From: an uncultured delta proteobacterium
Lineage (GTDB): Bacteria; Myxococcota; UBA727; VGSZ01
Length of the DNA stretch: 64,000 nt
Reading direction: 5' to 3'
Assembly (NCBI GenBank): GCA_963775425.1
Contig: CAVZJB010000003.1
Location: forward strand, 206,983 to 270,982
The notes below the pieces were generated by a model. It did no database searches. It was given only the letters and a program-made list of their open reading frames with translations, and was not told where the DNA came from. The position numbers and the translations under genes were made by a program. This document shows positions 24,377 to 60,778 of this stretch, in pieces; position 1 is the stretch's first letter; each line of letters begins with the position of its first letter.

Positions 24377-25594
24377 ATGCGTACGACAGCCCTCGCTTCG
24401 CTCCTGTTCAGCGCGCTCGTCAGCGCGCTCGCGTTCGCCTGCGCACCCACGCACAGCGCCCCGCCCCCCGGGGAGGCGGGCACCGGGGGCGAAGGCGAAG
24501 GCGACGGCGGCGGGGAAGGCGGCGGTGAAGGCGGTGAAGGCGAAGGTGGCGGCGGCGGTGGCGGCGAAGGCGGTGGCGGCGAAGGCGAAGGCGAAGGCGG
24601 TGGCGGTGGCGGCGAAAGCGAAGGCGAAGGCGAAGGCGGCGGCGGCGAAGGCGAAGGCGAAGGCGGCGGTGGCGAAGGCGAAGGCGAAGGTGGCGAAGGC
24701 GAAGGCGAAGGCGGTGGCGGTGGCGGTGGCGAGGGCGACGGCGGCGCGTGCGCGCCGGGAGCCGTCGACGGCTGCACCCTGCGCGTCGACGGCGACTACG
24801 ACTGCACAATGACGTTCGACGGGCTCGATCGCACCTGGCTGATGCACGTCCCCCCGGGCGTCGGCGGGCGCGTGCCGCTCGTGTTCTCCTTCCACGGCCT
24901 GCGCACCACCGCGGCGCTCCAGCGCTACATCAGCGAGATGGACCCGGCCGCCGACGCGCACGGCTACGTCGTCGTCTACCCCGAGGGCACGGGCCCGTCC
25001 CTCGACGAGAGCTGGAACGCGGGCAACTGCTGTGAGTCCGCCGCGCAAAACGACGTCGACGACGTCGGCTTCACCCTCGCCATCCTCGACCGCCTGCGCG
25101 CGCCCTTGTGCGTCGACGCGCGCCGCGTCTACGCCGCCGGCCTCTCCAACGGCGGCCACATGGTCTACCGCCTCGCCTGCGAAGCGGCCGACACCTTCGC
25201 CGCCGTCGCCTCCGTCGCCGGCGTGGAGACCACGTTCCCGTGCACGCCGAGCCGGCCAATCTCGCTGTTGCACATCCACGGCGACGCCAATCCCGTCGTC
25301 AACTACACCTTCGGCATCGACGGCATCCACGGCGCCCATCGCTCCGTCAGCGACTTCGCGGGCTTCGACGGCTGCGGCGAGAGCACCTCGGTGGTCTACC
25401 AAAACGGCGTGGTCACCTGCACCACGCGCGCGGGCTGCGCCGGCGGCACCGACGTCGAGCTGTGCACCGTCGCGGGCGGCGGGCACCAGTGGCCCGGCGG
25501 CCACGACCTGCCCTCCACCTTCGGCGACAACACCACCGACCTCGACGCCACCGAGCACATCTCCAACTTCTTCCTCGCCCACGCCTTGCCCTGA
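24377..25594 (+). CDS. lipoprotein esterase / PHB-depolymerase-like alpha/beta hydrolase with (GE)n acidic linker
   Basis: MRTTALASLLFSALVSALAFAC has a lipobox. A ~100-aa G/E repeat linker (GEGEGDGGGEGG...) follows. The catalytic domain has GLSNGG (GxSxG nucleophile elbow) and LpqC/esterase_phb-like motifs (LVFSFHGL..., HIHGDANPVV). Confidence 0.75.
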   Translation: MRTTALASLLFSALVSALAFACAPTHSAPPPGEAGTGGEGEGDGGGEGGGEGGEGEGGGGGGGEGGGGEGEGEGGGGGGESEGEGEGGGGEGEGEGGGGEGEGEGGEGEGEGGGGGGGEGDGGACAPGAVDGCTLRVDGDYDCTMTFDGLDRTWLMHVPPGVGGRVPLVFSFHGLRTTAALQRYISEMDPAADAHGYVVVYPEGTGPSLDESWNAGNCCESAAQNDVDDVGFTLAILDRLRAPLCVDARRVYAAGLSNGGHMVYRLACEAADTFAAVASVAGVETTFPCTPSRPISLLHIHGDANPVVNYTFGIDGIHGAHRSVSDFAGFDGCGESTSVVYQNGVVTCTTRAGCAGGTDVELCTVAGGGHQWPGGHDLPSTFGDNTTDLDATEHISNFFLAHALP

Positions 25595-43624: not shown

Positions 43625-43900
43625 CGTCGGCGCGGGCTCTCCCCGGCGTAGGGCGCGGGCTTGCCCCGACGTAGGGCGCGGGCTTGCCCCGACGGAGGGC
43701 GCGCGCTTGCCCCGACGTAGGGCGCGGGCTTGCCCCGACGTAGGGCGCGGGCTTGCCCCGACGGAGGGCGCGGGCTTGCCCCGACGGAGGGCGCGGGCTT
43801 GCCCCGACGCAGGGCGCGGGCTTGCCCCGACGCAGGGCGCGGGCTTGCCCCGACGCAGGGCGCGGGCTTGCCCCGACGTAGGGCGCGGGCTTGTCCCGCG
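43625..43900. repeat. tandem array of ~12 x 23-bp REP-like units (GTAGGGCGCGGGCTTGCCCCGAC; variants GGAG/GCAG heads)
   Basis: Directly visible perfect 23-bp periodicity at 43648, 43671, 43694 ... 43878. Each unit carries the GGGC-TT-GCCC mini-palindrome. No spacers, so it is not CRISPR. Confidence 0.85.
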
Positions 43901-44466: not shown

Positions 44467-44514
44467 ACGGCTCCGGGGTGGCCTCGCCGCGGATGCGGCG
44501 ATACACCGCGTCCG

Positions 44515-44587
44515 GGCCCGTAGCTCAGCGGTAGAGCAGTCGGCTCATAACCGATCGTGTCGCAGGTTCGAATCCTGCCGGGCCCAC
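44515..44587 (+). tRNA. tRNA-Met (anticodon CAT; elongator-type, could alternatively be tRNA-Ile2/lysidine)
   Basis: Cloverleaf: acceptor GGGCCCG/CGGGCCC, D-arm GCTC-AGCGGTA-GAGC, anticodon stem GTCGG/CCGAT with loop CTCATAA, T-arm GCAGG-TTCGAAT-CCTGC, discriminator A. No initiator features (G1:C72; no 3xGC in the anticodon stem). Confidence 0.85.
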
Positions 44588-44688
44588 AGTTCAAGCGCTC
44601 CTCCGCCGCGCGGCCGCTCCGGATAGGCCCAAGCACCGTCGGCGCGGGTGCGGATCGTCGTGCAGGGCGGTTCGAATCCTGCCGGGCG
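44566..44688 (+). repeat. attL-type direct repeat: 104-bp unit beginning with the tRNA-Met 3' end (GGTTCGAATCCTGCCGGGCCCACAG...), 1 full plus 1 partial copy
   Basis: GGTTCGAATCCTGCCGGGC occurs at 44566 (inside the tRNA) and again at 44670. The same 104-bp unit recurs 4.5x at 54184-54650. Confidence 0.8.
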
Positions 44689-44689
44689 C

Positions 44690-46223
44690 GCCAATCGTTG
44701 CCCTTCGTCATTTCCGCGAGGATGGCGAAGGGCTTTTTCATGTCGTAACGCACGGTTACGCCCTCGAGGCGTGGGTTCGAAAGCACCATTTCGAGCAGTT
44801 GGCGCTTCTCCGAGGGAGTGCGCTGGTTCCACAACGATCTCGCCTGCTTGGCCAGTTCGAAAATGCGATCCGCGGTGACGAGGTACTTGTCGTCGAGCTC
44901 CTCGCTCGCGGCGCTGAGCCGGTCGAGCGCCGCGTGCTTCTCGCTGAGCAGAATCTCACGCTGGCGCTGGTACGTGACGTCGTCGAGCTTCCCGTCGACA
45001 TACATCGCCACGATCTTGTCCTCGCGGGCTTGCACGTCGTCCACCGTCCGCTTGAGGACGGCGATCTCGCGGCGGCGCTCGGTGCGCACGACCTCGTGGG
45101 TCTCGCGGAGCACGCGCGAGATCTCGTCGGCGAGCGCGTGCGGCAGCTCGATGTTGGCGATCGCGACCTCGAATTGCGCGAGGAGCTGCGCCTCCGTCAC
45201 GTGGACGCGCTTGGCGTGAACCCGGTGGCCGTTCGCGCACCGGTAGTAGTCGTACCGCTTGCCGCCGGTCTTGATCTTCGGGTCGTAGGTGATGCGGCAA
45301 CCGCACTCGGCGCAGACCAGGAAGCCGGAGAGGGCGCCGGCCGCGCCGAGGGGCGAGCCGTACGCGCCGCGGGTGAAGGTCGCCTGGAGCCGCTCCCACT
45401 CGTTGGTGGTGAACACAGGTTCGTGCTTCCCGCGGTAGCGCTCGTCGCGCCACGTGAACCAGCCCGCGTAGAACTCGTGCTTGAGGATCGCCTCGACGTC
45501 GCCCGCGCGGAGTACGCGGTTCTTGCGGCCGAGCCCCGCCCAGAGCCCTTCGTTCACGATGGACTTGCCGACGCTCTCGAGCGATGCGCCGGCTACGCGC
45601 AGCTCGTACATGCGGCGGATGAGGGCGCGCCCCGCGGGCAACAGCTCGATGGTGCCGCCACGGTCTCGCACGACCCCATTCGCGCCGACGAGCTTGGCGT
45701 TGCGGTAGCCGATGGGCGGGCGCGTCGGGTACCAGCCGTCCTTCGCCTTCGCGTCCTGCGACTCCTTGGCGCGGCGCGAGAGCTGCCGCGAATAGGTCTT
45801 CGCGACGAGCGTATTCATCTCGGCCTTGAGCCAGTCGCCTTCGTCGCTGCCCGCGTGAAGCTGCCAGCGCTCATGCGCGACGTGCAACACGAGCTCGTCG
45901 CGGCGGATGAGATCTTCGAGCAGCTCGTAGTCGGTGAAGTTGCGGGTGGTGCGGTCCCAGACCCAAAAGACGAGGTGCCGCACCTTCTCCTTCTTCGCGC
46001 GCGCGAGCGCCGCGTGAAACATGACGCGGGCCTCGGACGACTTCGCGCTCTCCTCGAGCACGATGACGTCCACGAGGTTGAGGCCGTGCGCCTTCGCGTG
46101 CGCGGTGATCCCCTCGCGCTGCACGCCGGGGCTGTTGTTGTCGCCCTGCTTCTTCGAGGACACCCGCACGACGCCGATCGCGCGGTCCGACTTTCCGAGC
46201 CACCGAGCAGCATTCACCTTCAT
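44690..46223 (-). CDS. large serine recombinase (resolvase catalytic domain + recombinase domain + zinc ribbon). 3' boundary unresolved.
   Basis: MKVNAARWLGKSDRAIGVVRVSSKKQGDNNSPGVQ (catalytic Ser region). Central recombinase domain. CAECGCRITYDPKIKTGGKRYDYYRCANGH (Zn ribbon). The coiled-coil C-terminus ends about ...KPFAILAEMTKGND. The ORF has no stop until 44082 and runs through the att repeat, the tRNA and the VOC gene, so the true 3' end is likely near 44690 or was replaced on integration. Confidence 0.7.
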
Positions 46224-48395: not shown

Positions 48396-49478
48396 ATGCC
48401 TTCGATCTTCGCCCGGGCAACCGTCAAGCGCGTCACTCCCGGCGCGCTCATGAACGAGGAGGACGTCAAGGTCCACCTCGTTATGCCGCGGTTACAGGAA
48501 TGCGGCTTCACGCAGGAAGAGCTGCACCTCGAGGCGACGTTCACGCTCCGCGCCGGCCGCTACACCTTGAATGTCGGCGGCAAGGGCGCTCCCCGCGCGC
48601 ACCACGTGCGGGCCGACATCCTCGTCCTGCGGGCGGGCAAGCCGCTCATGATCGTGGAGGTAAAAGCCGACCACGTCGATCTGTCGGCGGACGACGATCG
48701 GGACCAAGCGGTGTCCTATGCACGGCTTCATGATCCGATGTGCCCGGTCGCAGCGTTGACAAACGGCAAGCGGTGGCGGTTTTTTGACACGGTCTCAAAG
48801 AAGGAGATTTCCGCCGATGATGTGAAGGCGTCGACAGCACTGACCATCACGCTCGAGGACGAGCTTCGGAGGGAAGCCCTCATACAATTTGTCGGTTACT
48901 CGAAGGAGAACCTCGCGGCTTTCTGCGCCGAGCAGGTTCGTACCGCTGTCGCACCGTATCTCGCCGGTCTCGATGGCACGCTGCCGCTGTTTATTCCGTC
49001 GCTCTACGTCCTGCCCGGAGCGATGCGTGACGCCTGGGCGAAGTTTGTCGAGGGGTCACAGCGGGGGTTGCTCGTCAGCGGAGGGAACGGGTCTGGGAAG
49101 TCGGCATGGATGGTTCATGCGTCGACGTCGCTGACCGGTCAGGGAAGACCTTGTCTCTTCTACCGCGCGCATCTCTTGAGCGACGGATTCATCGCCCGCC
49201 TCGCTTCTGACCTCGCCTGGGCCTTGAGTCCGAACCTCTCGAGCGATGCCGCCGGTCGCCGCTTCGCGAACACCCTGAGGGGCGCGCAGCTTGTTGTCTT
49301 CATCGACAGCGCTGACGAGGCGAGCGAGGAGCTCACGAGAGCTGCGCTGAACGAGCTCGTCGAGAGATTTCCGGCTAACGTGCGCTTCGTCGTTGCGTGC
49401 AAGTCGACGCGGGTCGCGCCGCTCGGTCGCGACCCCGATGGATTAGACGCGGCGTGGTTCCAAAGCCTGGGAGATTGA
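48396..49478 (+). CDS. HsdR_N-type PD-(D/E)xK nuclease domain fused to a P-loop NTPase (Walker A/B)
   Basis: N-terminus EEDVKVHLVMPRLQECGFTQEELHLE...RADILVLRAGKPLMIVEVKADHVDL matches the type I restriction enzyme R-protein N-terminal (Mrr-like) nuclease fold (D...EVK). C-terminal VSGGNGSGKS (Walker A) and LVVFIDSADE (Walker B). Confidence 0.65.
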   Translation: MPSIFARATVKRVTPGALMNEEDVKVHLVMPRLQECGFTQEELHLEATFTLRAGRYTLNVGGKGAPRAHHVRADILVLRAGKPLMIVEVKADHVDLSADDDRDQAVSYARLHDPMCPVAALTNGKRWRFFDTVSKKEISADDVKASTALTITLEDELRREALIQFVGYSKENLAAFCAEQVRTAVAPYLAGLDGTLPLFIPSLYVLPGAMRDAWAKFVEGSQRGLLVSGGNGSGKSAWMVHASTSLTGQGRPCLFYRAHLLSDGFIARLASDLAWALSPNLSSDAAGRRFANTLRGAQLVVFIDSADEASEELTRAALNELVERFPANVRFVVACKSTRVAPLGRDPDGLDAAWFQSLGD

Positions 49479-49484
49479 GAAGGC

Positions 49485-51424
49485 GTGGACCCGAGCCTCC
49501 TCGACGAGACGGAGTTTTGGACGCTCGTGCAGCGGCACCAACGTCACTTCGGGGTGTTTCCGCTGTTCAGCGGCCGGCTCCGAGCCGAAGCACGACGGCA
49601 GCCGAGCCTTCTGCGCCTCATCTTCGAGGTCTCCGCACAGAGCCGCAATGACTTGGCCGCTCACAACTCCCGTGAGTTCTTCAAACGATACGTCGACAAG
49701 CGCTTCGAAAGGTTCCAGCACAGCGCCGACGCGCTGCGACGTCTGACGGACCTCGCCATGAAGATGTTCGACGAGAACACGGAGATGGTCGACGCCCAAG
49801 ATGCTATGAAGACAGTGGATGAACCGACTCTCCGACGTGCGGCGGACGTCGGGCTGGTCGAGCAAGTCCACGGCCAAGACGGGCGCCCACAGGTGCGCTT
49901 CCGCGAGTCGCGAGTGCGGAACTACCTCGTCATCTCAGAGGGCCATCGCTGGCTCTCGAAGACGGCGGATGTGCTTGAGACCGATGAGGTCCTTCTTAAG
50001 ATCACGGGCGGCGTGCAGCTTGAAGCGATGGAGCTTCTGTACCTGCTTGCGGACGAGGCGCAGAAGGTCGTCTTCGACGGGGATGCACGCAAGAACGCGC
50101 GCAAGGCTCTCTCGATCTTCGATGGCGCTGTTCGCGCCGTCTGTCCCGATCTCGGTGATCGTTTTGTCCCACCCCTCGGAAAGCGCGCGTTCGTGGGCTA
50201 CATCGACGTGCGGCGTGGGGCGCTTTTCGCGGTCGGCTTCATTCCGCGGGAAGGCGACGACGTGTTCTTCTGGCCGCGGACCCGCGGAATCTTTGAGGAC
50301 CGAACCGCGATGTTTCTCGGCGCGCGCAAGTTCTCGTCAAGGGCAGATGGCTTCCTCGATGAGGCAAAGGCTGCACATTTCGCGTTCTGGGAGACGTTCA
50401 AGGCAGAGCTGCACGGAAGTGGTCGAAAACGGCCGGCTCGACGAGTCAAAGTGTGCGCCCATGCTCTCGGAGCTCGCGACGGTGCTTGCGGCCGCGCTCG
50501 AGCTCGTTGAGCCCGCGCAGCGCGGTTTCCCGACCGTCGCAAAGACCGATATTGGCGCTATTCGCGTCGCTCTCTGGCGGAAGCGCGCGTATGAGAACTA
50601 CTTGGCCGAACACATGCCGCGGGACGAGACCCGCAGCGGCAGCTCTGTCGTCGTCACACGCCATCTGACGCCTGATGTTCACAGCGCGGCTCTAGCGCAC
50701 GCTGAATCGCTACCACTTGACTTCAGCGAGCTGCCCCCCGCTGAGGATCGGACGACCGCGACAGCGATGGAGGACGAGCTGCAGAGCGACGCTCGCTCAC
50801 CTTGAAGCGCTCGGCGAAACGAGCATCGAGAGCATCTTGCCGGCGTCGGATCAGAACGGTGCTCACATCTGGGAGCTTTGGAAGGAGCCGACGTTCAAAG
50901 CGGCCGCGGTACGGTTGACGCAGCTGCGCATTGAGTGCGTGGAGAATATCGTTCATGCGAGCTTCTCTCCCGACATCGCCAAGCGCATCCTCGGTGCCAC
51001 GACGACGGCCCTTTGCAGGCAGGACTATCGTGAAGGAACAGTTGAAGAGCTGCGTGTAACAACAAGCGCTGCGCTTCCCCGCGTAGTGGCGTTCGACGAG
51101 CGCCAAGAGGTCAAGCTGGCTCCCGACGGACGGACCGGAACCTTCCGGGGCGTGGAGATTCGCGACGTCGAATATTCATCAGCGACCTTTGCATTCGTTG
51201 CGAACGCGCGGAGCGCGTTTCTTCCGCAATCCTGGCGCTTCAAGCGTGAGCTCTGCCCGCTTCGAGCAGCGGTGTACCGCTTCATCGTCGACCGCTTGCC
51301 GTCCGCGCTCGCGCCGATCGGCAAGTCGCTTGGCGCTCCACCAACAAAGCGCTTGCGACTGACGTTGACGGGGCGACCGATTCCGCAGGATGTTGATGAT
51401 GCCGATGACGACGAAGAAACGTAG
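49485..51424 (+). pseudogene. large hypothetical island ORF, probably one ~640-aa gene broken by two frameshifts (segments 49485-50510, ~50461-50805, 50717-51424). May be the continuation of the upstream NTPase.
   Basis: GTG 49485 lies 6 nt after the upstream TGA. Protein-like text passes from frame 3 to frame 1 near 50430 (…FWETFKAEL / TEVVENGRLDES…) and to frame 2 near 50790 (…MEDELQS / ATLAHLEALGETS…). No recognisable domains. Confidence 0.35.
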
Positions 51425-52100
51425 CCGCGTTATCGAGGAAGTTCTGCTTCAGATCGCTGCATCGCGAGAAACCGAGGCGCCGGGGCCTCGCTCCTGCGTC
51501 CGTAGCCGCACTGCAACAGATTGCGGGGGAGGAGCGGGCCGGCTCAGTCCCCGTAGCCATCGCTTCCCGCCGGCTCAGTGCAGCAATCGCGTCATCTGTC
51601 TCGAGGTCCTCCTTCGAGAGATCAGATGTCGCCTTCGTGTTGGTGAGACGCGCCTTCAGGAACTTCACCAGATAGGTTTCGCCCGCGACCGCGTCGACTT
51701 TGGCGCGCTGGGCCACCTCAACGTTGCTGAAGTCCTGCTTTCCTTCGCGAAACAGCTCCATGACTGCGATGTAGACCCGCATGCCCTTGTTTGGCTGCTT
51801 CAGACCCTTCGAAGCCTTCGCGCGGTTGCACGCCATGCAAAGGACTTGCAGGTTCTCGAGGGCGTGGTTCTTGGCGTTCCCATCAACATGGTCAAAAGTG
51901 ATGCGTCGGTGCGAGCCGCACTTGCTACAGCGGAAGTCAGCATCGACAACGAGTTTCCAGAGTTCCTTTGTCGTCGGCGCGGACTTTCCGTAGGTTTCGC
52001 TCTTGAGCCAAGATCCCCGAACCGCGCCTGGCTGCGGAGGGCCGAACGCAGACAGTAGCGCCGCGAGCACGTCGTCTTCATTGAGCTCAAGCAGCTTCAT
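51282..52100 (-). CDS. HNH endonuclease
   Basis: CSKCGSHRRITFDHVDGNAKNHALENLQVLCMACN is the canonical HNH motif with a Zn-binding CxxC...CxxC. Start chosen at MKLLELNEDDV, because the upstream part of the ORF overlaps the rayT region. The 3' end overlaps the convergent ORF ending 51424. Confidence 0.7.
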   Translation of the reverse strand: MKLLELNEDDVLAALLSAFGPPQPGAVRGSWLKSETYGKSAPTTKELWKLVVDADFRCSKCGSHRRITFDHVDGNAKNHALENLQVLCMACNRAKASKGLKQPNKGMRVYIAVMELFREGKQDFSNVEVAQRAKVDAVAGETYLVKFLKARLTNTKATSDLSKEDLETDDAIAALSRREAMATGTEPARSSPAICCSAATDAGARPRRLGFSRCSDLKQNFLDNAATFLRRHRHHQHPAESVAPSTSVASALLVERQATCRSARARTASGRR

Positions 52101-52420
52101 GAATTCGAGTGACTCGTTCCACGGTGTCCTCGCTTTCTTCGGCCGCGACCGATGACGATGCTCTACGTTGGGTATCACGCAGGCGACGACGTCGCACTCA
52201 GCTCGCGACGGATCGCGGCACGCAGTTCGAAAAACCTCAAGCCGGGCGCGTTCGTGTTCTTCTGCGCGCGCAAAGCGCTTGGGGAGAAACGCCGTTTCTC
52301 CCCCGTCGCGGGCGGAGCCCGACGACGGCTCCCCCTCTTCCCCCGTCGCTGTGGCTCCTGCCTCCCTCCGGTCGGCCTCGTTCAGGGGCGGAGGCTCGTT
52401 CGAGCTTCGCCGTCGCGACC

Positions 52421-53078
52421 CTGGTCTGAGGGGGGCAGGCGTCCCGCCTGTCACGGGCGTCCCATGCGGATCAGGCGAGATCTCGCGCAAGAAGATCGAG
52501 CTCGGTCGGATGTTCATTGTGGACACAGACGCGCGCCGCCCAACCCTACATCGACGACGGCTCCCTCACTTCGTCCCGCCGCAGACCGAGCGCGGACAGA
52601 CTTACACTTCGTCACATGGCGCGTGCGCCGAGGCGTGGCACATCTCAGTCCTGACGAACGAGGCCGCGTCCGCGCGGCCATCAATCATTGCGATGCCATG
52701 CGCTACGAAGTCCACGCAGCCGTCGTCATGGACGATCACGTGCACGTGCTGTTGACGCTACTCGCTGACCACACGCTGAGCCGCGTGCTCCACACCTGGA
52801 AGTCGTTCACGGCGCACGAGCTTCAGAAGCTCGGCCGTCGCGGGAGCGTTTGGCAGGATGAGTCCTTCGACCGCACGATCTTCAGCGCGGCGGAGCCTCG
52901 AGCAGAAGGCAAGGTACATCGCGGCGAATCCGACGAAACGATGGCCCACCTTGTCCGGCTATCTGTGGGTGCAGTGTGTGGTCATGTTCACCAACGATCC
53001 GTGACAGGCGGGACGCCTGCCCCCCTCAGACGAACGATCAGTGACACGCGGGACGCGTGGCCCCCCTCAGACGAGAGC
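52421..53078 (+). mobile_element. REPtron-like unit: REP-associated tyrosine (Y1, IS200/IS605-like) transposase flanked by inverted hairpin repeats
   Basis: Left CTGGTCTGAGGGGGGCAGGCGTCCCGCCTGTCACGG (52421-52462) is the reverse complement of right CCGTGACAGGCGGGACGCCTGCCCCCCTCAGACG (52999-53036), with a second partial right copy at 53041-53078. Each contains the CAGGCG-TCC-CGCCTG hairpin. Confidence 0.6.
52464..53004 (+). pseudogene. rayT: REP-associated tyrosine transposase RayT (TnpA_REP), frameshifted near 52900
   Basis: DLHFVTWRV...HAAVVMDDHVHVLLT is the HuH motif. The conserved C-terminal ...ARYIAANPTKRWPTLSGYLW (YIxxNP motif) lies in the +1 frame ending at TGA 53002-53004. Confidence 0.55.
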
Positions 53079-53102
53079 TTCCGGCGTCATCAGGCGCAGC
53101 TC

Positions 53103-53280
53103 GGTTCGAAAATCCTCCATCCGGGCGCGCGTTTCGAGCCCATTCGCGACGTCGGCTACGTCGACGACCCGTAGGGCGGGGGCTCGTCCCCCGCCTTTTC
53201 CGTCGGCGGGCGCGCGTGGGGATACGGGGGACAAGCCCCCGCCCTACGCACCGCGGTTCGCAAATCGTCACACCGGGCGC
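53103..53280. repeat. 178-bp BIME-like repeat copy 1 (two inverted GTAG-headed REP hairpins GTAGGGCGGGGGCTCGTCCCCCGCC)
   Basis: Near-identical to 53992-54170. Begins with tRNA-T-loop-like GGTTCGAAAA. Contains GGCGGGGG-CTCGT-CCCCCGCC hairpins in inverted orientation. Confidence 0.75.
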
Positions 53281-53376
53281 GCTCTCCGATTTCGCCAACG
53301 ACGTCGAGGGCTTGGCCGACCCACGTGTCGACGCTTTCGAACTGAAGCCCGACGCGCAGCTTGCTAAGCTGATGGC

Positions 53377-53622
53377 GTGGCGAACGTAGAGCTTCTGAAG
53401 CGCATCAGCGTCGACCCTGCCGTCTGCGGTGGCCGGCCTTGTATCCGGGGGCACCGCATCTGGGTGTCGCTGGTGCTCGACTTCCTCGCCGACGGCGAGT
53501 CCGTCGACCAGATCGTCGCGAACTATCCCGGCATCGAGGCTGCGGACGTCCTCGCGTGCATCGCGTACGGCGCCGAGATGAGCCGGCTGCGCGAGGTCCC
53601 GCCGCGCCCCGCAGCAGGATGA
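53377..53622 (+). CDS. DUF433 domain protein (antitoxin-like)
   Basis: MANVELLKRISVDPAVCGGRPCIRGHRIWVSLVLDFLADGESVDQIVANYPGIEAADVLACIAYGAE is the DUF433 signature. ATGA overlap with the downstream DUF5615 gene. Confidence 0.75.
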   Translation: MANVELLKRISVDPAVCGGRPCIRGHRIWVSLVLDFLADGESVDQIVANYPGIEAADVLACIAYGAEMSRLREVPPRPAAG

Positions 53623-53984
53623 AGATCAAGCTCGACGAGAACCTCGGGCGACGTGGAGGGGCGGTCTTCCGCGTTGCGGGTCACGACGTCGACAGCGTCG
53701 TCGACGAAGGTCTCGCGAGCGCCGCCGACGATGCGGTGCGCGCGGCTGCGACGAGGGCGGAGCGCGTTCTCGTCACGCTCGACCTCGACTTCGCCAACCC
53801 GCTCCGGCATCCGCCGGCCGGGACGCCGGGGATCGCCGTGCTGCGGCTGCCGGAACCGCTTACGCCGTCCCTCATCGACGGCGCTGTCGTCGTGCTGCTC
53901 GGCGAGCTCGGCCGTGAACCGATCGATGGCCGACTCTGGATCGTCGAGGTGGATCGCATCCGCATCTACGATCCCGAGAGCTGA
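53619..53984 (+). CDS. DUF5615 (PIN-like) domain protein, putative toxin partner of DUF433
   Basis: MKIKLDENLG...VLVTLDLDFANPLRHPP...IAVLRLPEP is the DUF5615 pattern. A conserved two-gene DUF433/DUF5615 arrangement. Confidence 0.7.
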   Translation: MKIKLDENLGRRGGAVFRVAGHDVDSVVDEGLASAADDAVRAAATRAERVLVTLDLDFANPLRHPPAGTPGIAVLRLPEPLTPSLIDGAVVVLLGELGREPIDGRLWIVEVDRIRIYDPES

Positions 53985-53991
53985 AGGACAG

Positions 53992-54170
53992 CGGTTCGAA
54001 AAGCGTCAAGCCGGGCGCGCGTTTCGAGCCATTCGCGACGTCGGCTACGTCGACGACCCGTAGGGCGGGGGCTCGTCCCCCGCCTTTTCCGTCGGCGGGC
54101 GCGCGTGGGGATGCGGGGGACAAGCCCCCGCCCTACGCACCGCGGTTCGCAAATCGTCACACCGGGCGCA
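53992..54170. repeat. 178-bp BIME-like repeat copy 2
   Basis: Same sequence as 53103-53280 with a few substitutions (GGGGATGCGGGGGACAAGCCCCCGCCCTACG). Confidence 0.75.
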
Positions 54171-54183
54171 CAGCTCAAGCGGC

Positions 54184-54650
54184 GGTTCGAATCCTGCCGG
54201 GCCCACAGCTCAAGCGCTCCTCGGCCGCGCGCCCGCTCCGGATAGGCCCAAGCACCGTCGGCGCGGGTGCGGATCGTCGTGCAGGGCGGTTCGAATCCTG
54301 CCGGGCCCACAGTTCAAGCGCTCCTTCGCCGCGCGCCCGCTCCGGATAGGCCCAAGCACCGTCGGCGCGGGTGCGGATCGTCGTGCAGGGCGGTTCGAAT
54401 CCTGCCGGGCCCACAGTTCAAGCGCTCCTTCGCCGCGCGCCCGCTCCGGATAGGCCCAAGCACCGTCGGCGCGGGTGCGGATTGTCGTGCAGGGCGGTTC
54501 GAATCCTGCCGGGCCCACAGTTCAAGCGCTCCTTCGCCGCGCGCCCGCTCCGGATAGGCCCAAGCACCGTCGGCGCGGGTGCGGATTGTCGTGCAGGGCG
54601 GTTCGAATCCTGTCGGGCCCACAGTTCAAGCGCTCCTCCGCCGCACGCCA
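54184..54650 (+). repeat. attR-type tandem array: 4 full plus 1 partial copies of the 104-bp tRNA-3'-end-containing unit
   Basis: GGTTCGAATCCTG(C/T)CGGGCCCACAG recurs at 54184, 54288, 54392, 54496, 54600 (exact 104-bp spacing). The last copy diverges after ~50 bp. Confidence 0.85.
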
Positions 54651-59305: not shown

Positions 59306-60778
59306 ATGTGTCGGATGGTCATGACCCCTGTCCTCGTTGCCAGCCTCGCCGTGGCTGTCGCTGCATTCACCGCTTGCCCCGGCGAAGGCGAAGGCGAAGG
59401 TGAGGGCGAGGGCGAAGGCGAAGGCGAGGGCGACACCCAGTGCGGCGCGCGCGACCTCCCCTGCCACCCGGACGGCACCCCCAACTCGCAGTCCGACTGC
59501 TGCGACGCCACCGACGTCTGCGTGCCGCTCGACGGCAACGCCACCGTCGGCGCCTGCCGCCAGAAGTGCGGCGACCTCACCATCCAGAACGGCCAGGTCG
59601 CGAACGCCACCAAGGACCCCAGCGTCACCTGCACGGGGACGCGCACCTGCCAGACCGTCACCACCACCCCGGCGCTCGACATCGTCGCCGAGGCGTGCAT
59701 CGAGCCGGCTGACGGCATCGACGGCCTCTGCCACGACCTCTTCGACGTCGAGCTCCAGGACGCGGCGTGCCCCGACGGCCTCGACTGCGAGATCACGGCC
59801 ACCGACGCCAACGGCGACCCGTCGTCGTTGAACTGCAAGCAGCCGTGCGACCCCTTCGACGACACCAGCGTCGCCGTCTGCACGGACCAGGGCCTCGAGT
59901 GCCTCCAGGCGCCGCTGCAGTTCGCGAACATCCAGGACGACGGCAACGGCGGCCAGGTCCGCTGCGACGACGGCGCCACGCCCGACGGCAACGAGCTCGC
60001 GGCCTGCCAGGCCGGCGGCAACGCCGCGGACTGCCCGTGTGACACGGCCAACGGCTTCACCTGCGCGCAGTTCGGCCTCACCGGCGGCGGCAGCGGCTTC
60101 TTCTGCAACAAGGCCACCACCAACTGCGCCACCAACGTCCCGGCCACCACCCAGGCCGTCCTCGACGCGGATCCGGCGCACGCGATCAATGACCCGAACT
60201 TCCTCTGCAACGGCGTCGACGCCAGCCGCTACTGCGACCCGTCGATGTTCGACGGCGTGCCGGCCGAGAACGCGGGCAGCGACATCTGCATCTCCATCAG
60301 CCGCACCAGCAACGACGGCGTCTGCTTCGCGTTCTGCGGGTCGCCCGACGTCGACGACAACAACAACGGCACCATCGAGGACACCGAGAAGGGCCAGACC
60401 TTCCAGTGCGCCGACGGCTTCACCTGCGAGCCGAAGTTCGGTGTCAGCATCGGCATCTGGGTCGACATCCTCGACGCCCAGGGCAACCAGCAGACCTGCG
60501 CCTGCGACGGCGACGCCCAGTTCTGCGACGGCGGCACCCAGTGCGGCGCCAGCTCGCCGACCTTCTGCGTGAACAACCAGGGCTTCCACTGCGAGGCCCC
60601 CTTCAGCAGCTGCGAGCCCAACGCCGGCGAAGGCGAGGGCGAAGGCGAAGGCGAAGGCGAAGGCGAAGGCGAAGGCGAAGGCGAAGGCGAAGGCGAAGGC
60701 GAAGGCGAAGGCGAAGGTGAGGGCGAAGGCGAAGGCGAAGGCGAGGGCGAAGGCGAGGGCGAGGGCGAGGGCGAGTAG
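59306..60778 (+). CDS. cysteine-rich secreted lipoprotein with (GE)n repeats at both termini
   Basis: MCRMVMTPVLVASLAVAVAAFTAC has a lipobox, then (GE)10. About 60 Cys in a ~400-aa core. A C-terminal (GE)~27 tail, encoded by (GGCGAA)n. Confidence 0.7.
   Translation: MCRMVMTPVLVASLAVAVAAFTACPGEGEGEGEGEGEGEGEGDTQCGARDLPCHPDGTPNSQSDCCDATDVCVPLDGNATVGACRQKCGDLTIQNGQVANATKDPSVTCTGTRTCQTVTTTPALDIVAEACIEPADGIDGLCHDLFDVELQDAACPDGLDCEITATDANGDPSSLNCKQPCDPFDDTSVAVCTDQGLECLQAPLQFANIQDDGNGGQVRCDDGATPDGNELAACQAGGNAADCPCDTANGFTCAQFGLTGGGSGFFCNKATTNCATNVPATTQAVLDADPAHAINDPNFLCNGVDASRYCDPSMFDGVPAENAGSDICISISRTSNDGVCFAFCGSPDVDDNNNGTIEDTEKGQTFQCADGFTCEPKFGVSIGIWVDILDAQGNQQTCACDGDAQFCDGGTQCGASSPTFCVNNQGFHCEAPFSSCEPNAGEGEGEGEGEGEGEGEGEGEGEGEGEGEGEGEGEGEGEGEGEGEGEGEGE

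What the first reader, a model, noticed from the sequence alone, without database searches (positions are those of the whole stretch)
52421..53078. REPtron: RayT-type Y1 transposase flanked by inverted hairpin-forming repeats
The HuH transposase (HVHVLL motif, YIAANP tail) is bracketed by a ~34-bp sequence and its reverse complement (GGGGGGCAGGCGTCCCGCCTGTCAC). Each carries an internal 6-bp-stem hairpin, and there is an extra partial copy on the right. This is the organisation described for REP-associated tyrosine transposases and their REP/BIME substrates. Other GTAG-headed REP-like sequences lie nearby (53.1-54.2 kb and the 23-bp array at 43.6 kb). The transposase itself appears frameshifted.
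Basis: partly seen in the sequence, partly recalled or inferred. Interest (0 to 1): 0.55.

Follow-up and report, generated by a model that had tools for sequence, protein, structure and literature searches.

The report
Decayed REPtron inside a tRNA-Met island
A broken copy of a REP-associated (RayT-type) single-strand-DNA transposase gene, still bracketed by its hairpin repeats, sits as one of several short passenger modules at the far end of a serine-recombinase island next to a tRNA-Met gene; it is a known kind of element in an unusual and possibly mobile package.

Summary
A perfect 33-nt inverted repeat (52424-52456 / 52999-53031), plus a second right-hand copy (53041-75), brackets a Y1 HUH transposase gene of the RayT/TnpA_REP class. 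The gene is dead, with two frameshifts relative to intact relatives that are 81-83% identical.

The hairpin core is a real REP sequence. The same 21-mer, headed by GTAG or GTGG, is dispersed in MAGs of many phyla. A 60%-identical RayT is flanked by the GTAG version.

In this 64-kb window the hairpin occurs nowhere else, so a local REP family is not shown. The source genome could not be retrieved.

The context changes the reading. The unit lies inside a ~9.5-kb island integrated by a large serine recombinase beside tRNA-Met. It sits in a 2-kb stack of four short modules: the RayT gene, a GTAG-REP doublet, a DUF433/DUF5615 toxin-antitoxin pair, and the doublet again. Each module is preceded by a copy of the island's distal att arm.

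The nearest intact relatives assemble as 756/757-bp closed loops holding one att arm, the gene and both hairpins.

Verdict: a decayed REPtron-like unit, a new member of a known kind. The hint that such units travel as att-bounded modules is inferred, not shown.

The parts
52424..52456 (+). Left REP-A hairpin (GGGG head, stem GGCAGGCG/CGCCTGTC, loop TCC), which forms the left arm of the perfect 33-nt inverted repeat
   Evidence: (I1)
52510..53004 (+). RayT/TnpA_REP-class Y1 HUH transposase pseudogene. HVHVLL is at 52737-52754 and the catalytic-Tyr motif YIAANP at 52915-52932. There is a +2 frameshift at 52603-52604 and a +1 frameshift near 52896. The stop codon TGA (53002-53004) lies inside the right REP.
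52999..53031 (-). Right REP-A hairpin, first copy (inverted), which forms the right arm of the 33-nt inverted repeat
53041..53075 (-). Right REP-A hairpin, second copy. It is part of a 40-bp tandem duplication, has 3 mismatches, and keeps its stem through a compensatory change.
   Evidence: (I7, D6)
52224..52250 (+). att-arm copy 1 (P-arm-like motif AGTTCGAAAAACCTCAAGCCGGGCGCG). It marks the end of the LSR-bearing part of the island and the start of the RayT module. An inverted partner GTTCGAGCT lies at 52398-52406.
   Evidence: (D3)
53103..53129 (+). att-arm copy 2. Homology between the window and the closed-loop RayT contigs ends exactly at its 3' end.
53171..53248 (.). REP-B doublet: GTAGGGCGGGGGCTCGTCCCCCGCC and its inverted copy, REPIN-like, folding with z -3.4. 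It is part of a 180-bp unit, 53102-53281.
   Evidence: (I4, D2)
53255..53281 (+). att-arm copy 3. With its flank it is homologous to the att arm and flank of the RayT loops. Its partner TTTCGAACT lies at 53335-53343.
53377..53984 (+). Toxin-antitoxin module: DUF433 antitoxin-like gene (53377-53622) and DUF5615 PIN-like gene (53619-53984)
53993..54170 (+). Second copy of the 180-bp unit: att-arm copy 4 (53993-54019), REP-B doublet (54060-54137) and att-arm copy 5 (54144-54170). Copy 5 is joined to tRNA-Met downstream sequence ACAGCTCAAGCG, which makes it the island's attR.
   Evidence: (D2, I3)
44514..44587 (+). tRNA-Met (CAT) gene, whose 3' end supplies the attB-type arm GGTTCGAATCCTGCCGGGC
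44669..44710 (+). attL: a duplicate tRNA-3'-end arm joined to the element arm GCGCCAATCGTTGCCC. The same junction is found in three related islands.
44690..46223 (-). Large serine recombinase gene (Resolvase + Recombinase + Zn_ribbon_recom). The ORF reads across attL.
54181..54649 (+). 4.5 tandem copies of a 104-bp unit, each made of the tRNA-Met 3' end plus downstream sequence. Together these give spare attB-like sites. One more unit lies at 44588-44690.
   Evidence: (D1)

Best explanation
The locus is a decayed REPtron-like unit: the gene for a RayT/TnpA_REP-class Y1 HUH enzyme, together with its cognate REP hairpins. One hairpin lies upstream in the REP orientation. Two lie downstream, inverted, and the first of these contains the stop codon.

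From established knowledge of E. coli TnpA_REP, an intact enzyme of this class binds the folded REP on single-stranded DNA through the hairpin and its 5' tetranucleotide. It then cuts and rejoins nearby, which spreads or amplifies REPs in trans.

Here the gene is inactivated by a +2 and a +1 frameshift. Its 3' end has also been remodelled by a 40-bp REP duplication. It can therefore no longer act.

The unit is not a resident chromosomal REPtron. It is one of four short modules stacked at the distal end of a ~9.5-kb island that a large serine recombinase (LSR) integrated into a duplicate tRNA-Met 3' end. Each module is preceded by a copy of the island's distal att arm.

The most likely origin of the stack is serial site-specific accretion of small modules that carry an att arm but no recombinase, with the LSR-bearing element arriving last. 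This would resemble SCC composite islands. This step is inferred, not shown.
For: Class of the gene (shown):
- Pfam Y1_Tnp scores 34 bits against a cutoff of 23.
- NCBIfam REP_Tyr_transpos scores 79.6 bits, against 30.6 for transpos_IS200.
- Intact relatives score 79-87 bits on the same model.
- The only PDB hit is E. coli TnpA_REP, 4ER8.
- The motifs DHVH / WQ / YIAANP fit class 2 of Quentin et al. 2018 (PMC6006769).

Pseudogene (shown):
- The protein alignment with P0001 and P0002 (81-83% identity) needs three reading frames.
- The DNA alignment places the indels.

Flanks are REPs (shown):
- The 33-nt inverted repeat is perfect.
- The hairpins fold.
- The same 21-mer occurs 23 times in 22 stretches of MAGs from about 8 phyla, mostly headed by GTAG or GTGG. 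One Sumerlaeales MAG has 10 copies on 9 contigs.
- The 21-mer also occurs in IMG/VR contigs.
- The 60%-identical RayT on L005 is flanked by GTAG-headed copies in REP/iREP orientation.

Island (shown):
- tRNA-Met is present and the LSR has all three domains.
- G+C drops across the island.
- The attL junction is identical in form in four islands.
- The att-arm motif marks the far end of three related islands, once each. In L056 the other end is a tRNA-Arg gene that overlaps the LSR 3' end.
- The window has five such arms, all on the + strand, against 0.06 expected.

Module boundaries (shown):
- Homology to the loop contig L004 (85% over 745 nt) stops exactly at the 3' end of an att arm.
- L002 and L004 are closed k141 loops of 757 and 756 bp.
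Against: - The window's REP copies carry GGGG where the family-defining GT[AG]G tetranucleotide should be. In E. coli that tetranucleotide is essential for binding (PMC3333891).
- No dispersed copies are seen in 64 kb of the window or in about 105 kb of related contigs. REP status in this genome therefore rests on other genomes.
- The NCBIfam score is just under the curated cutoff (79.6 against 80).
- The frameshifts cannot be checked against reads. They are not in homopolymer runs, which argues against simple sequencing error, but this is not proof.
- The sequences to the right of the internal att arms do not resemble the LSR's own P' arm, by my own comparison of the sequences.
- A TA homologue elsewhere (L068) has no att arm downstream.
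- For these last two reasons the accretion mechanism is unproven.
Confidence: 0.8

Rival explanations
1. This is a resident, functional or recently functional REPtron that seeds a genome-wide REP/REPIN family in this organism.
For: - The architecture is right: a RayT-class gene with REP and iREP flanks.
- The hairpin core is a dispersed REP in other genomes.
- Other GTAG-headed hairpins lie nearby.
Against: - The gene carries two frameshifts.
- There are no extra REP-A copies in the window or in related contigs.
- The unit lies inside a horizontally acquired LSR island with lower G+C.
- The nearby GTAG hairpins have a different stem, so they belong to another family.
Confidence: 0.1
2. This is an autonomous IS200/IS605-type insertion sequence that transposes through single-stranded circles, with the two hairpins as its left and right ends.
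For: - The size is small (about 600 bp from hairpin to hairpin) and only a Y1 gene is present.
- Close relatives assemble as roughly 756-bp closed loops in three samples.
- An almost identical copy (1 mismatch in about 715 nt) lies in a different flank on L001.
Against: - The IS200 model scores only 30.6 bits against a cutoff of 55.
- The Tyr motif is YIxxNP, not Y...Q.
- The hairpins are inverted and form a 33-40-nt terminal inverted repeat. From my own knowledge, and consistent, IS200/IS605 ends are not inverted repeats.
- The loops contain about 150 nt beyond both hairpins, including an LSR att arm, so the hairpins are not the ends of the repeated unit.
Confidence: 0.07
3. The stack of att arms is not a product of site-specific accretion. 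On this view it arose by local duplication and deletion or homologous recombination, and the metagenomic loops are simply tandem duplications. The RayT unit would then be ordinary island cargo or former host flank.
For: - The 180-bp unit is duplicated at 99% identity around the TA pair, which could be a 1.2-copy tandem duplication with an 889-bp period (D2).
- The attB region itself is a 104-bp tandem array.
- The flanks to the right of the att arms do not look like the LSR P' arm.
- E. coli TnpA_REP is proposed to amplify BIMEs locally (PMC3333891).
Against: - Four of the five arms differ from one another (64-90% identity, D3), so they are not recent copies of one arm.
- Each arm precedes unrelated cargo.
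- Homology with independent contigs breaks exactly at the arms.
- Related islands carry exactly one arm.
Confidence: 0.3

Closest known systems
E. coli REPtron (tnpA_REP/yafM flanked by BIMEs; Ton-Hoang et al. 2012, PMC3333891) and Pseudomonas RAYT/REPIN systems (Bertels and Rainey 2011)
   Same: - A Y1 HUH gene of the TnpA_REP class.
- Hairpin repeats on both sides in inverted orientation.
- A local tandem duplication of a flanking REP.
- A toxin-antitoxin pair next door. In some E. coli strains the REPtron is replaced by hicAB.
   Different: - The gene is dead.
- The head tetranucleotide is GGGG here, not GT[AG]G.
- No dispersed family is visible locally.
- The unit sits in a mobile island, and relatives form closed 756-bp loops. 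REPtrons are described as not transposing as a unit.
- The host is a high-G+C deltaproteobacterium-like organism, judged from the names of LSR relatives.
IS200/IS605 insertion sequences (IS608, ISDra2)
   Same: A small Y1 HUH transposase, DNA hairpins near the ends, and possible circular forms.
   Different: - The IS200 HMM is not met (30.6 bits against 55).
- The Tyr motif is of class 2.
- The hairpins are inverted rather than co-oriented.
- There is no tnpB.
Composite islands built by serine or tyrosine recombinases: SCCmec/pseudo-SCC arrays (CcrAB), ICE/CIME accretion, and tycheposon arrays at tRNA genes (comparison from my own knowledge)
   Same: - A large serine recombinase sits at the target-proximal end.
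- Repeated att-derived sequences separate modules that lack their own recombinase.
- The target is the 3' end of a conserved gene, here a tRNA.
   Different: - The modules here are tiny (150-880 bp).
- One is a REP doublet and one is a RayT gene.
- The repeated arm is the attP-type arm, whose spacer is 5 bp longer than in the tRNA arm.
- Recombination at the internal arms is untested.
Integron gene-cassette arrays
   Same: - Short, mostly single-gene modules in one orientation.
- Each is associated with an imperfect palindrome of variable length (36-180 nt, from GGTTCGAAA to TTTCGARC).
- Circular or looped forms carry one site each.
   Different: - The core sequences do not fit the attC R''/R' consensus RYYYAAC/GTTRRRY (read directly from the sequence).
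- The associated recombinase is a serine recombinase, and no IntI was seen in the island.
- The site precedes the cargo and mimics a tRNA 3' end.

Membership tests
REPtron / RAYT (TnpA_REP) system | Y1 HUH nuclease of the TnpA_REP class (HuH motif, WQ/WE, Y-x-x-x-NP), distinct from IS200 TnpA | tested here: met
   - Pfam PF01797 scores 34 bits.
- NCBIfam NF047646 scores 79.6 bits (cutoff 80), against 30.6 for NF033573 (cutoff 55).
- Intact relatives score 79-87 bits.
- The only PDB hit is 4ER8.
- The motifs are DHVH, VWQ and YIAANP.
REPtron / RAYT (TnpA_REP) system | Intact, expressible gene | tested here: not met
   +2 nt at 52603-52604 and +1 nt near 52896 relative to L004. The 3' coding end has been replaced by a REP duplication.
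REPtron / RAYT (TnpA_REP) system | Gene flanked by REP hairpins in inverted orientation | tested here: met
   A 33-nt perfect inverted repeat plus a second right copy. The same arrangement is seen in L001-L005.
REPtron / RAYT (TnpA_REP) system | REP = imperfect palindrome with a conserved 5' GT[AG]G tetranucleotide | tested here: inconclusive
   The window and its closest relatives have GGGG at that position. The same hairpin in 22 genome stretches and in L005 is mostly headed by GTAG or GTGG. The stem contains one G.T pair.
REPtron / RAYT (TnpA_REP) system | Cognate REP family dispersed at high copy number in the same genome | not testable with these tools
   The source genome is not retrievable. 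Within reach, there are 0 extra copies in 64 kb of the window or in about 105 kb of related contigs.
REPtron / RAYT (TnpA_REP) system | Single chromosomal copy, vertically inherited, not moving as a unit | tested here: not met
   The unit lies inside an LSR island with reduced G+C. A near-identical unit is found in a different flank and as closed loops.
IS200/IS605 insertion sequence | TnpA_IS200-type transposase (Y...Q motif) | tested here: not met
   NF033573 scores 30.6 bits against a cutoff of 55. The motif is YIAANP. No IS608 or ISDra2 chains are hit in the PDB at E<=1.
IS200/IS605 insertion sequence | Co-oriented subterminal hairpins with no terminal inverted repeat | tested here: not met
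   The hairpins are inverted and form a 33-40-nt inverted repeat.
Large-serine-recombinase integrative island | Recombinase with Resolvase, Recombinase and zinc-ribbon domains next to one junction | tested here: met
   PF00239, PF07508 and PF13408 all match. Relatives are 85-94% identical.
Large-serine-recombinase integrative island | Hybrid attL and attR sites whose arms recur in independent islands at different targets | tested here: met
   attL is a tRNA-like arm joined to GCGCCAATCG in the window, L056 (tRNA-Arg), L063 and L064. The P-arm motif marks the far end of L056, L063 and L064. In the window, attR at 54144 is joined to tRNA-Met downstream sequence.
Large-serine-recombinase integrative island | attP-type half-site longer than the attB-type half-site by about 5 bp between the inner and outer motifs (from my knowledge of LSR-att structures) | tested here: met
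   The spacing is GTTCGAA-N5-CCGGGC in all four B arms and GTTCGAA-N10-CCGGGC in all P arms. Actual binding was not tested.
Integron cassette array | attC sites with R''/R' cores RYYYAAC...GTTRRRY, and an IntI integrase | tested here: not met
   The cores are GGTTCGAAA...TTTCGARC. The only recombinase in the island is a serine recombinase. The rest of the window was not scanned for IntI.

The most novel reading that the evidence does not exclude
The RayT gene, its two REP hairpins and one copy of a tRNA-mimicking att arm together form a self-contained mobile mini-element of about 756 bp. It would exist as a circle or as a tandem array. It would enter and leave serine-recombinase islands by using their att system in trans, or replicate as an HUH-driven rolling-circle minicircle.

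This would make it a vehicle that carries REP/RAYT systems between phyla, and it would explain why the same REP 21-mer is found from Sumerlaeota to Acidobacteriota. The four-module stack in the window would then be a cassette array built by a serine recombinase.
Probability: 0.25. Interest if true: 0.7.

Novelty: new member of a known kind. Interest (0 to 1): 0.38.

Why it matters
RAYT/REP systems are usually described as single-copy, vertically inherited and immobile as a unit. Yet their patchy distribution across phyla implies horizontal transfer by unknown means.

This locus shows a RayT-plus-REP unit riding in a recombinase island. Near-identical relatives occur as closed 756-bp loops and in another flank. 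The hairpin core is conserved to the base in many phyla.

If the att-bounded module is truly mobile, it would be a concrete transfer vehicle for REP systems. It would also be an example of a cassette-like array built on serine-recombinase att arms.

As it stands, the copy in this window is an inactive relic. It has no evident current function beyond possible hairpin effects on transcription.

Tried and rejected
- **Source genome.** Exact-protein look-ups for DUF433, GlyA and the toxin found no retrievable record. The toxin does match a 726-kb NCBI/ENA contig, but no accession is given. Genome-wide REP counts were therefore impossible.
- **Metagenome scan for the att arm.** It gave 14 stretches. 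Twelve are chance matches inside genes, and only L033 and L036 are relevant.
- **Viral scan for the att arm.** Nothing found.
- **Plasmid DNA and protein searches.** Nothing found.
- **Rfam on 43-56 kb.** Only the tRNA was found.
- **Cleavage-site idea.** I considered that the right junction of L001, inside the right hairpin, marks a RayT cleavage site. I rejected this because it is not at a C|T dinucleotide. The downstream sequence also looks like a diverged REP copy.
- **att arms as a high-copy REP or MITE.** Rejected. There is one per related island and none elsewhere in the window.
- **Integron attC identity.** Rejected on the core consensus.
- **The 23-bp array as a REP array.** Rejected, because it does not fold.
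- **TA cassette elsewhere with att arms.** The one context I could fetch (L068) has none downstream, and a group II intron RT lies there instead. This is inconclusive.
- **k-mer repeat census of the window.** Uninformative because of G+C-rich low-complexity sequence.
Full report
**1. What is in the sequence**

The region 52.4-53.1 kb contains a perfect 33-nt inverted repeat. The left arm is 52424-52456 (GTCTGAGGGGGGCAGGCGTCCCGCCTGTCACGG) and its reverse complement is 52999-53031 (I1). A third, diverged copy lies at 53041-53075, and the two right-hand copies form a 40-bp tandem duplication. The 25-mer core occurs three times in the window against 0.00 expected from shuffles, and nowhere else in the 64 kb.

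Each copy folds as a stem of 6-8 bp with a 3-nt loop. The diverged copy preserves its stem by a change on both sides (CAGGCG/CGCCTG to CACGCG/CGCGTG). I call this hairpin REP-A.

**2. The gene**

Between the arms, three reading frames together encode a 163-aa Y1 HUH protein.
- The reconstructed protein matches Pfam Y1_Tnp at 34 bits, cutoff 23.
- It matches NCBIfam REP_Tyr_transpos at 79.6 bits, cutoff 80. The IS200/IS605 transposase model scores only 30.6 bits against a cutoff of 55.
- Intact relatives score 79-87 bits on the REP model.
- The only solved structure hit at E<=1 is E. coli TnpA_REP, 4ER8.
- The motifs DHVH, VWQ and YIAANP fit class 2, the TnpA_REP-like class, in the scheme of Quentin et al. 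2018. They are closest to subclasses 2.5 and 2.7 (PMC6006769).

A database search gave 998 relatives. The best two, P0001 and P0002, are intact and 81-83% identical.

DNA alignment with the P0002 contig shows three lesions:
- a 2-nt insertion at 52603-52604;
- a 1-nt insertion near 52896;
- replacement of about 30 nt of the 3' coding end by the REP duplication.

The stop codon (53002-53004) lies inside the first right-hand hairpin. The gene (52510-53004) is therefore a pseudogene, unless the assembly is wrong. Neither indel is in a homopolymer run.

**3. Are the flanks REPs?**

They are in kind, but this is not shown for this genome.

An exact scan of one genome per species for the 21-mer GGCASGCGTCCCGCSTGTCAC found 22 stretches. 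They come from MAGs of Sumerlaeota (10 copies on 9 contigs of one MAG), Verrucomicrobiota, Planctomycetota, Acidobacteriota, Gemmatimonadota, Armatimonadota, Actinomycetota and a deltaproteobacterium. In nearly all of them the hairpin is immediately preceded by GTAG or GTGG. That is the tetranucleotide that defines classical REPs and is needed for TnpA_REP binding in E. coli (PMC3333891).

None of these 8-kb stretches holds a RayT gene, so they are dispersed copies. IMG/VR contigs show the same hairpin with the same heads.

A 60%-identical RayT (P0003, contig L005) has GTAGGACAGGCGTCCCGCCTGTCAC upstream and inverted copies downstream. The association between this gene clade and this hairpin is therefore conserved.

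In the window and its closest relatives the head is GGGG instead. No further copy, even with five mismatches, exists in the window or in about 105 kb of contigs from related organisms.

The source genome is not in the searchable genome set, and exact-protein look-ups failed. The toxin next door matches a 726-kb NCBI/ENA contig exactly, but that contig could not be fetched.

**4. The other GTAG sequences**

The hairpins at 53171-53195 / 53224-53248 and 54060-54084 / 54113-54137 belong to a different family, which I call REP-B.
- The sequence is GTAG followed by GGCGGGGG-CTCGT-CCCCCGCC, with an 8-bp stem (z -4.1).
- They are arranged as inverted doublets, REPIN-like (z -3.4).
- The exact 25-mer recurs, with at least four more copies, in a 5.5-kb high-G+C IMG/VR contig. 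REP-B is therefore also a real dispersed family, presumably served by another RayT.

The 23-bp array at 43629-43898 shares the GTAGGGCG head, but its units do not fold better than shuffles (z +0.86). I do not count it as REP-like.

**5. Context**

A tRNA-Met gene lies at 44514-44587. Its 3' end plus 80 bp of downstream sequence forms a 104-bp unit. The unit is present once more at 44588-44690 and 4.5 times at 54181-54649.

Between these lies 9.5 kb of lower G+C, 60-68% against 70-80% outside. It contains:
- a large serine recombinase with all three domains, next to the tRNA side;
- a nuclease-NTPase gene (HSDR_N plus STAND/AAA);
- an HNH gene.

The left junction joins the tRNA-type arm GGTTCGAATCCTGCCGGGC to GCGCCAATCGTTGCCC. 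The same junction form occurs in three islands with recombinases that are 85-94% identical. One of these is at a tRNA-Arg gene that overlaps the recombinase 3' end.

In those three islands the far end is marked, once each, by the motif GGTTCGAAAATCCTCnnnCCGGGCGCG. This motif is the tRNA-type arm with a spacer 5 bp longer: N10 instead of N5 between GTTCGAA and CCGGGC. From my knowledge of serine-integrase structures, this is the geometry that distinguishes attP from attB half-sites. I therefore read the motif as the island's P arm.

**6. The stack of modules**

The window has five P arms, all on the + strand, at 52224, 53103, 53255, 53993 and 54144, against 0.06 expected. The last is joined to tRNA-Met downstream sequence and is the island's attR.

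The other four each precede a short module:
- the RayT unit (52250-53102);
- a REP-B doublet (53130-53254);
- a DUF433/DUF5615 toxin-antitoxin pair (53282-53992);
- the REP-B doublet again (54020-54143).

The relevant results are. Four of the five arms have an inverted partner (TTTCGARC) 20-170 nt downstream. This gives an imperfect palindrome of variable length.

Homology between the window and the P0002 contig (85% over 745 nt) ends exactly at the 3' end of the arm at 53103-53129.

The contigs that carry P0001 and P0002, from different samples, have exact 141-nt terminal overlaps. They are closed loops in a k=141 assembly graph, of 757 and 756 bp. Each holds one P arm, both hairpins and the gene. 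A third sample gives the same cycle broken at the hairpin. A fourth contig, L001, has the same element behind an unrelated gene, with 1 mismatch in about 715 nt.

**7. Interpretation**

Shown:
- a RayT-class pseudogene with cognate inverted REP hairpins;
- its location inside a serine-recombinase island at tRNA-Met;
- a stack of P-arm-preceded modules that related islands lack;
- a closed-loop form of the closest relatives.

Inferred: the modules were added one after another by site-specific recombination at the att arm, with the recombinase supplied in trans. The recombinase-bearing element would have arrived last, on the tRNA side. This would resemble SCC composite islands or ICE/CIME accretion.

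Against this inference:
- the sequences to the right of the internal arms do not resemble the recombinase's own P' arm;
- one TA homologue elsewhere lacks an arm downstream;
- local duplication is clearly active here, as shown by the 104-bp array, the 180-bp unit duplicated at 99% identity, and the 40-bp REP duplication.

E. coli TnpA_REP is itself proposed to amplify REP arrays locally.

**8. Comparison and verdict**

By architecture and enzyme class this is a REPtron-like unit. It fails three of the features usually given for REPtrons: an intact gene, a GT[AG]G head, and immobile chromosomal residence. A fourth feature, a dispersed family in the same genome, could not be tested.

It is not an IS200/IS605 element. 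The HMM, the Tyr motif and the hairpin orientation all fail.

I rate it a new member of a known kind with modest interest. The more novel reading is an att-bounded 756-bp RayT mini-element that carries REP systems between genomes. The evidence does not exclude it, and I give it a probability of about 0.25.

Noticed in passing
window 44588-44690 and 54181-54649: A 104-bp unit made of the tRNA-Met 3' end (GGTTCGAATCCTGCCGGGCCCACA) plus 80 bp of downstream sequence is repeated about 5.5 times in all. This gives a row of spare attB-like sites. The island sits in the first duplicate, which leaves the tRNA gene intact.
   Followed up: partly
window 52224, 53103, 53255, 53993, 54144 (all + strand): Five copies of a tRNA-3'-end-like motif (GGTTCGMAAAnCnTCnnnCCGGGCGC). 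Related islands carry this motif once, at their far end. Its spacer is 5 bp longer than in the tRNA arm. Four copies have an inverted partner TTTCGARC 20-170 nt downstream.
   Followed up: yes
L002 (898 nt) and L004 (897 nt); also L003 and L001: The closest intact RayT relatives lie on metagenome contigs with exact 141-nt terminal overlaps, which are closed k141 loops of 757 and 756 bp. A near-identical copy (1 mismatch in about 715 nt) lies in a different flank on L001.
   Followed up: partly
L006-L027 (genome MAGs) and L042-L052 (IMG/VR): The REP-A core 21-mer is conserved to the base in MAGs of about 8 phyla, usually with a GTAG or GTGG head. There are 10 copies in one Sumerlaeales MAG and 6 in one 37-kb IMG/VR contig. 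Some occur as direct tandem copies about 41 nt apart, like the 40-bp duplication in the window.
   Followed up: partly
window 53102-53281 and 53992-54170; L067: A 180-bp unit (att arm, REP-B doublet, att arm) flanks the DUF433/DUF5615 toxin-antitoxin pair as direct repeats, 99% identical over 141 nt. The REP-B 25-mer recurs at least 5 times in a 5.5-kb high-G+C viral contig.
   Followed up: partly
window 43629-43898: A 23-bp minisatellite (GGCGCGGGCTTGCCCCGACGTAG, 11.7 copies, 95% matches) lies in the intergenic region upstream of the gene that precedes tRNA-Met. Its head resembles REP-B, but the units have no hairpin potential.
   Followed up: partly
window 46223-44082 (- strand): The serine recombinase ORF runs across attL and on through the tRNA-Met gene without a stop, giving 713 aa against 514-573 aa in relatives. 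Integration therefore changes the C-terminus. In L056 the ORF ends inside tRNA-Arg.
   Followed up: no
window 48396-49478 and 51282-52110: The island cargo looks defence-like: an HSDR_N nuclease domain fused to a STAND/AAA NTPase, and an HNH endonuclease. Several neighbouring ORFs have no Pfam match.
   Followed up: no
L066 5358-6866 and L068 691-1122: Reverse-transcriptase ORFs lie next to a related recombinase's att end (L066, where Pfam reports RVT_1) and just after a related toxin-antitoxin pair (L068). I read both as group II intron RTs, but I did not run a family search on the L068 ORF. They may be targeting the hairpin-rich att regions.
   Followed up: no
window 24484-24746, 59381-59433, 60626-60774: Long GGCGAA hexamer arrays (up to 44 copies) at three places in the window. 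I did not examine them.
   Followed up: no
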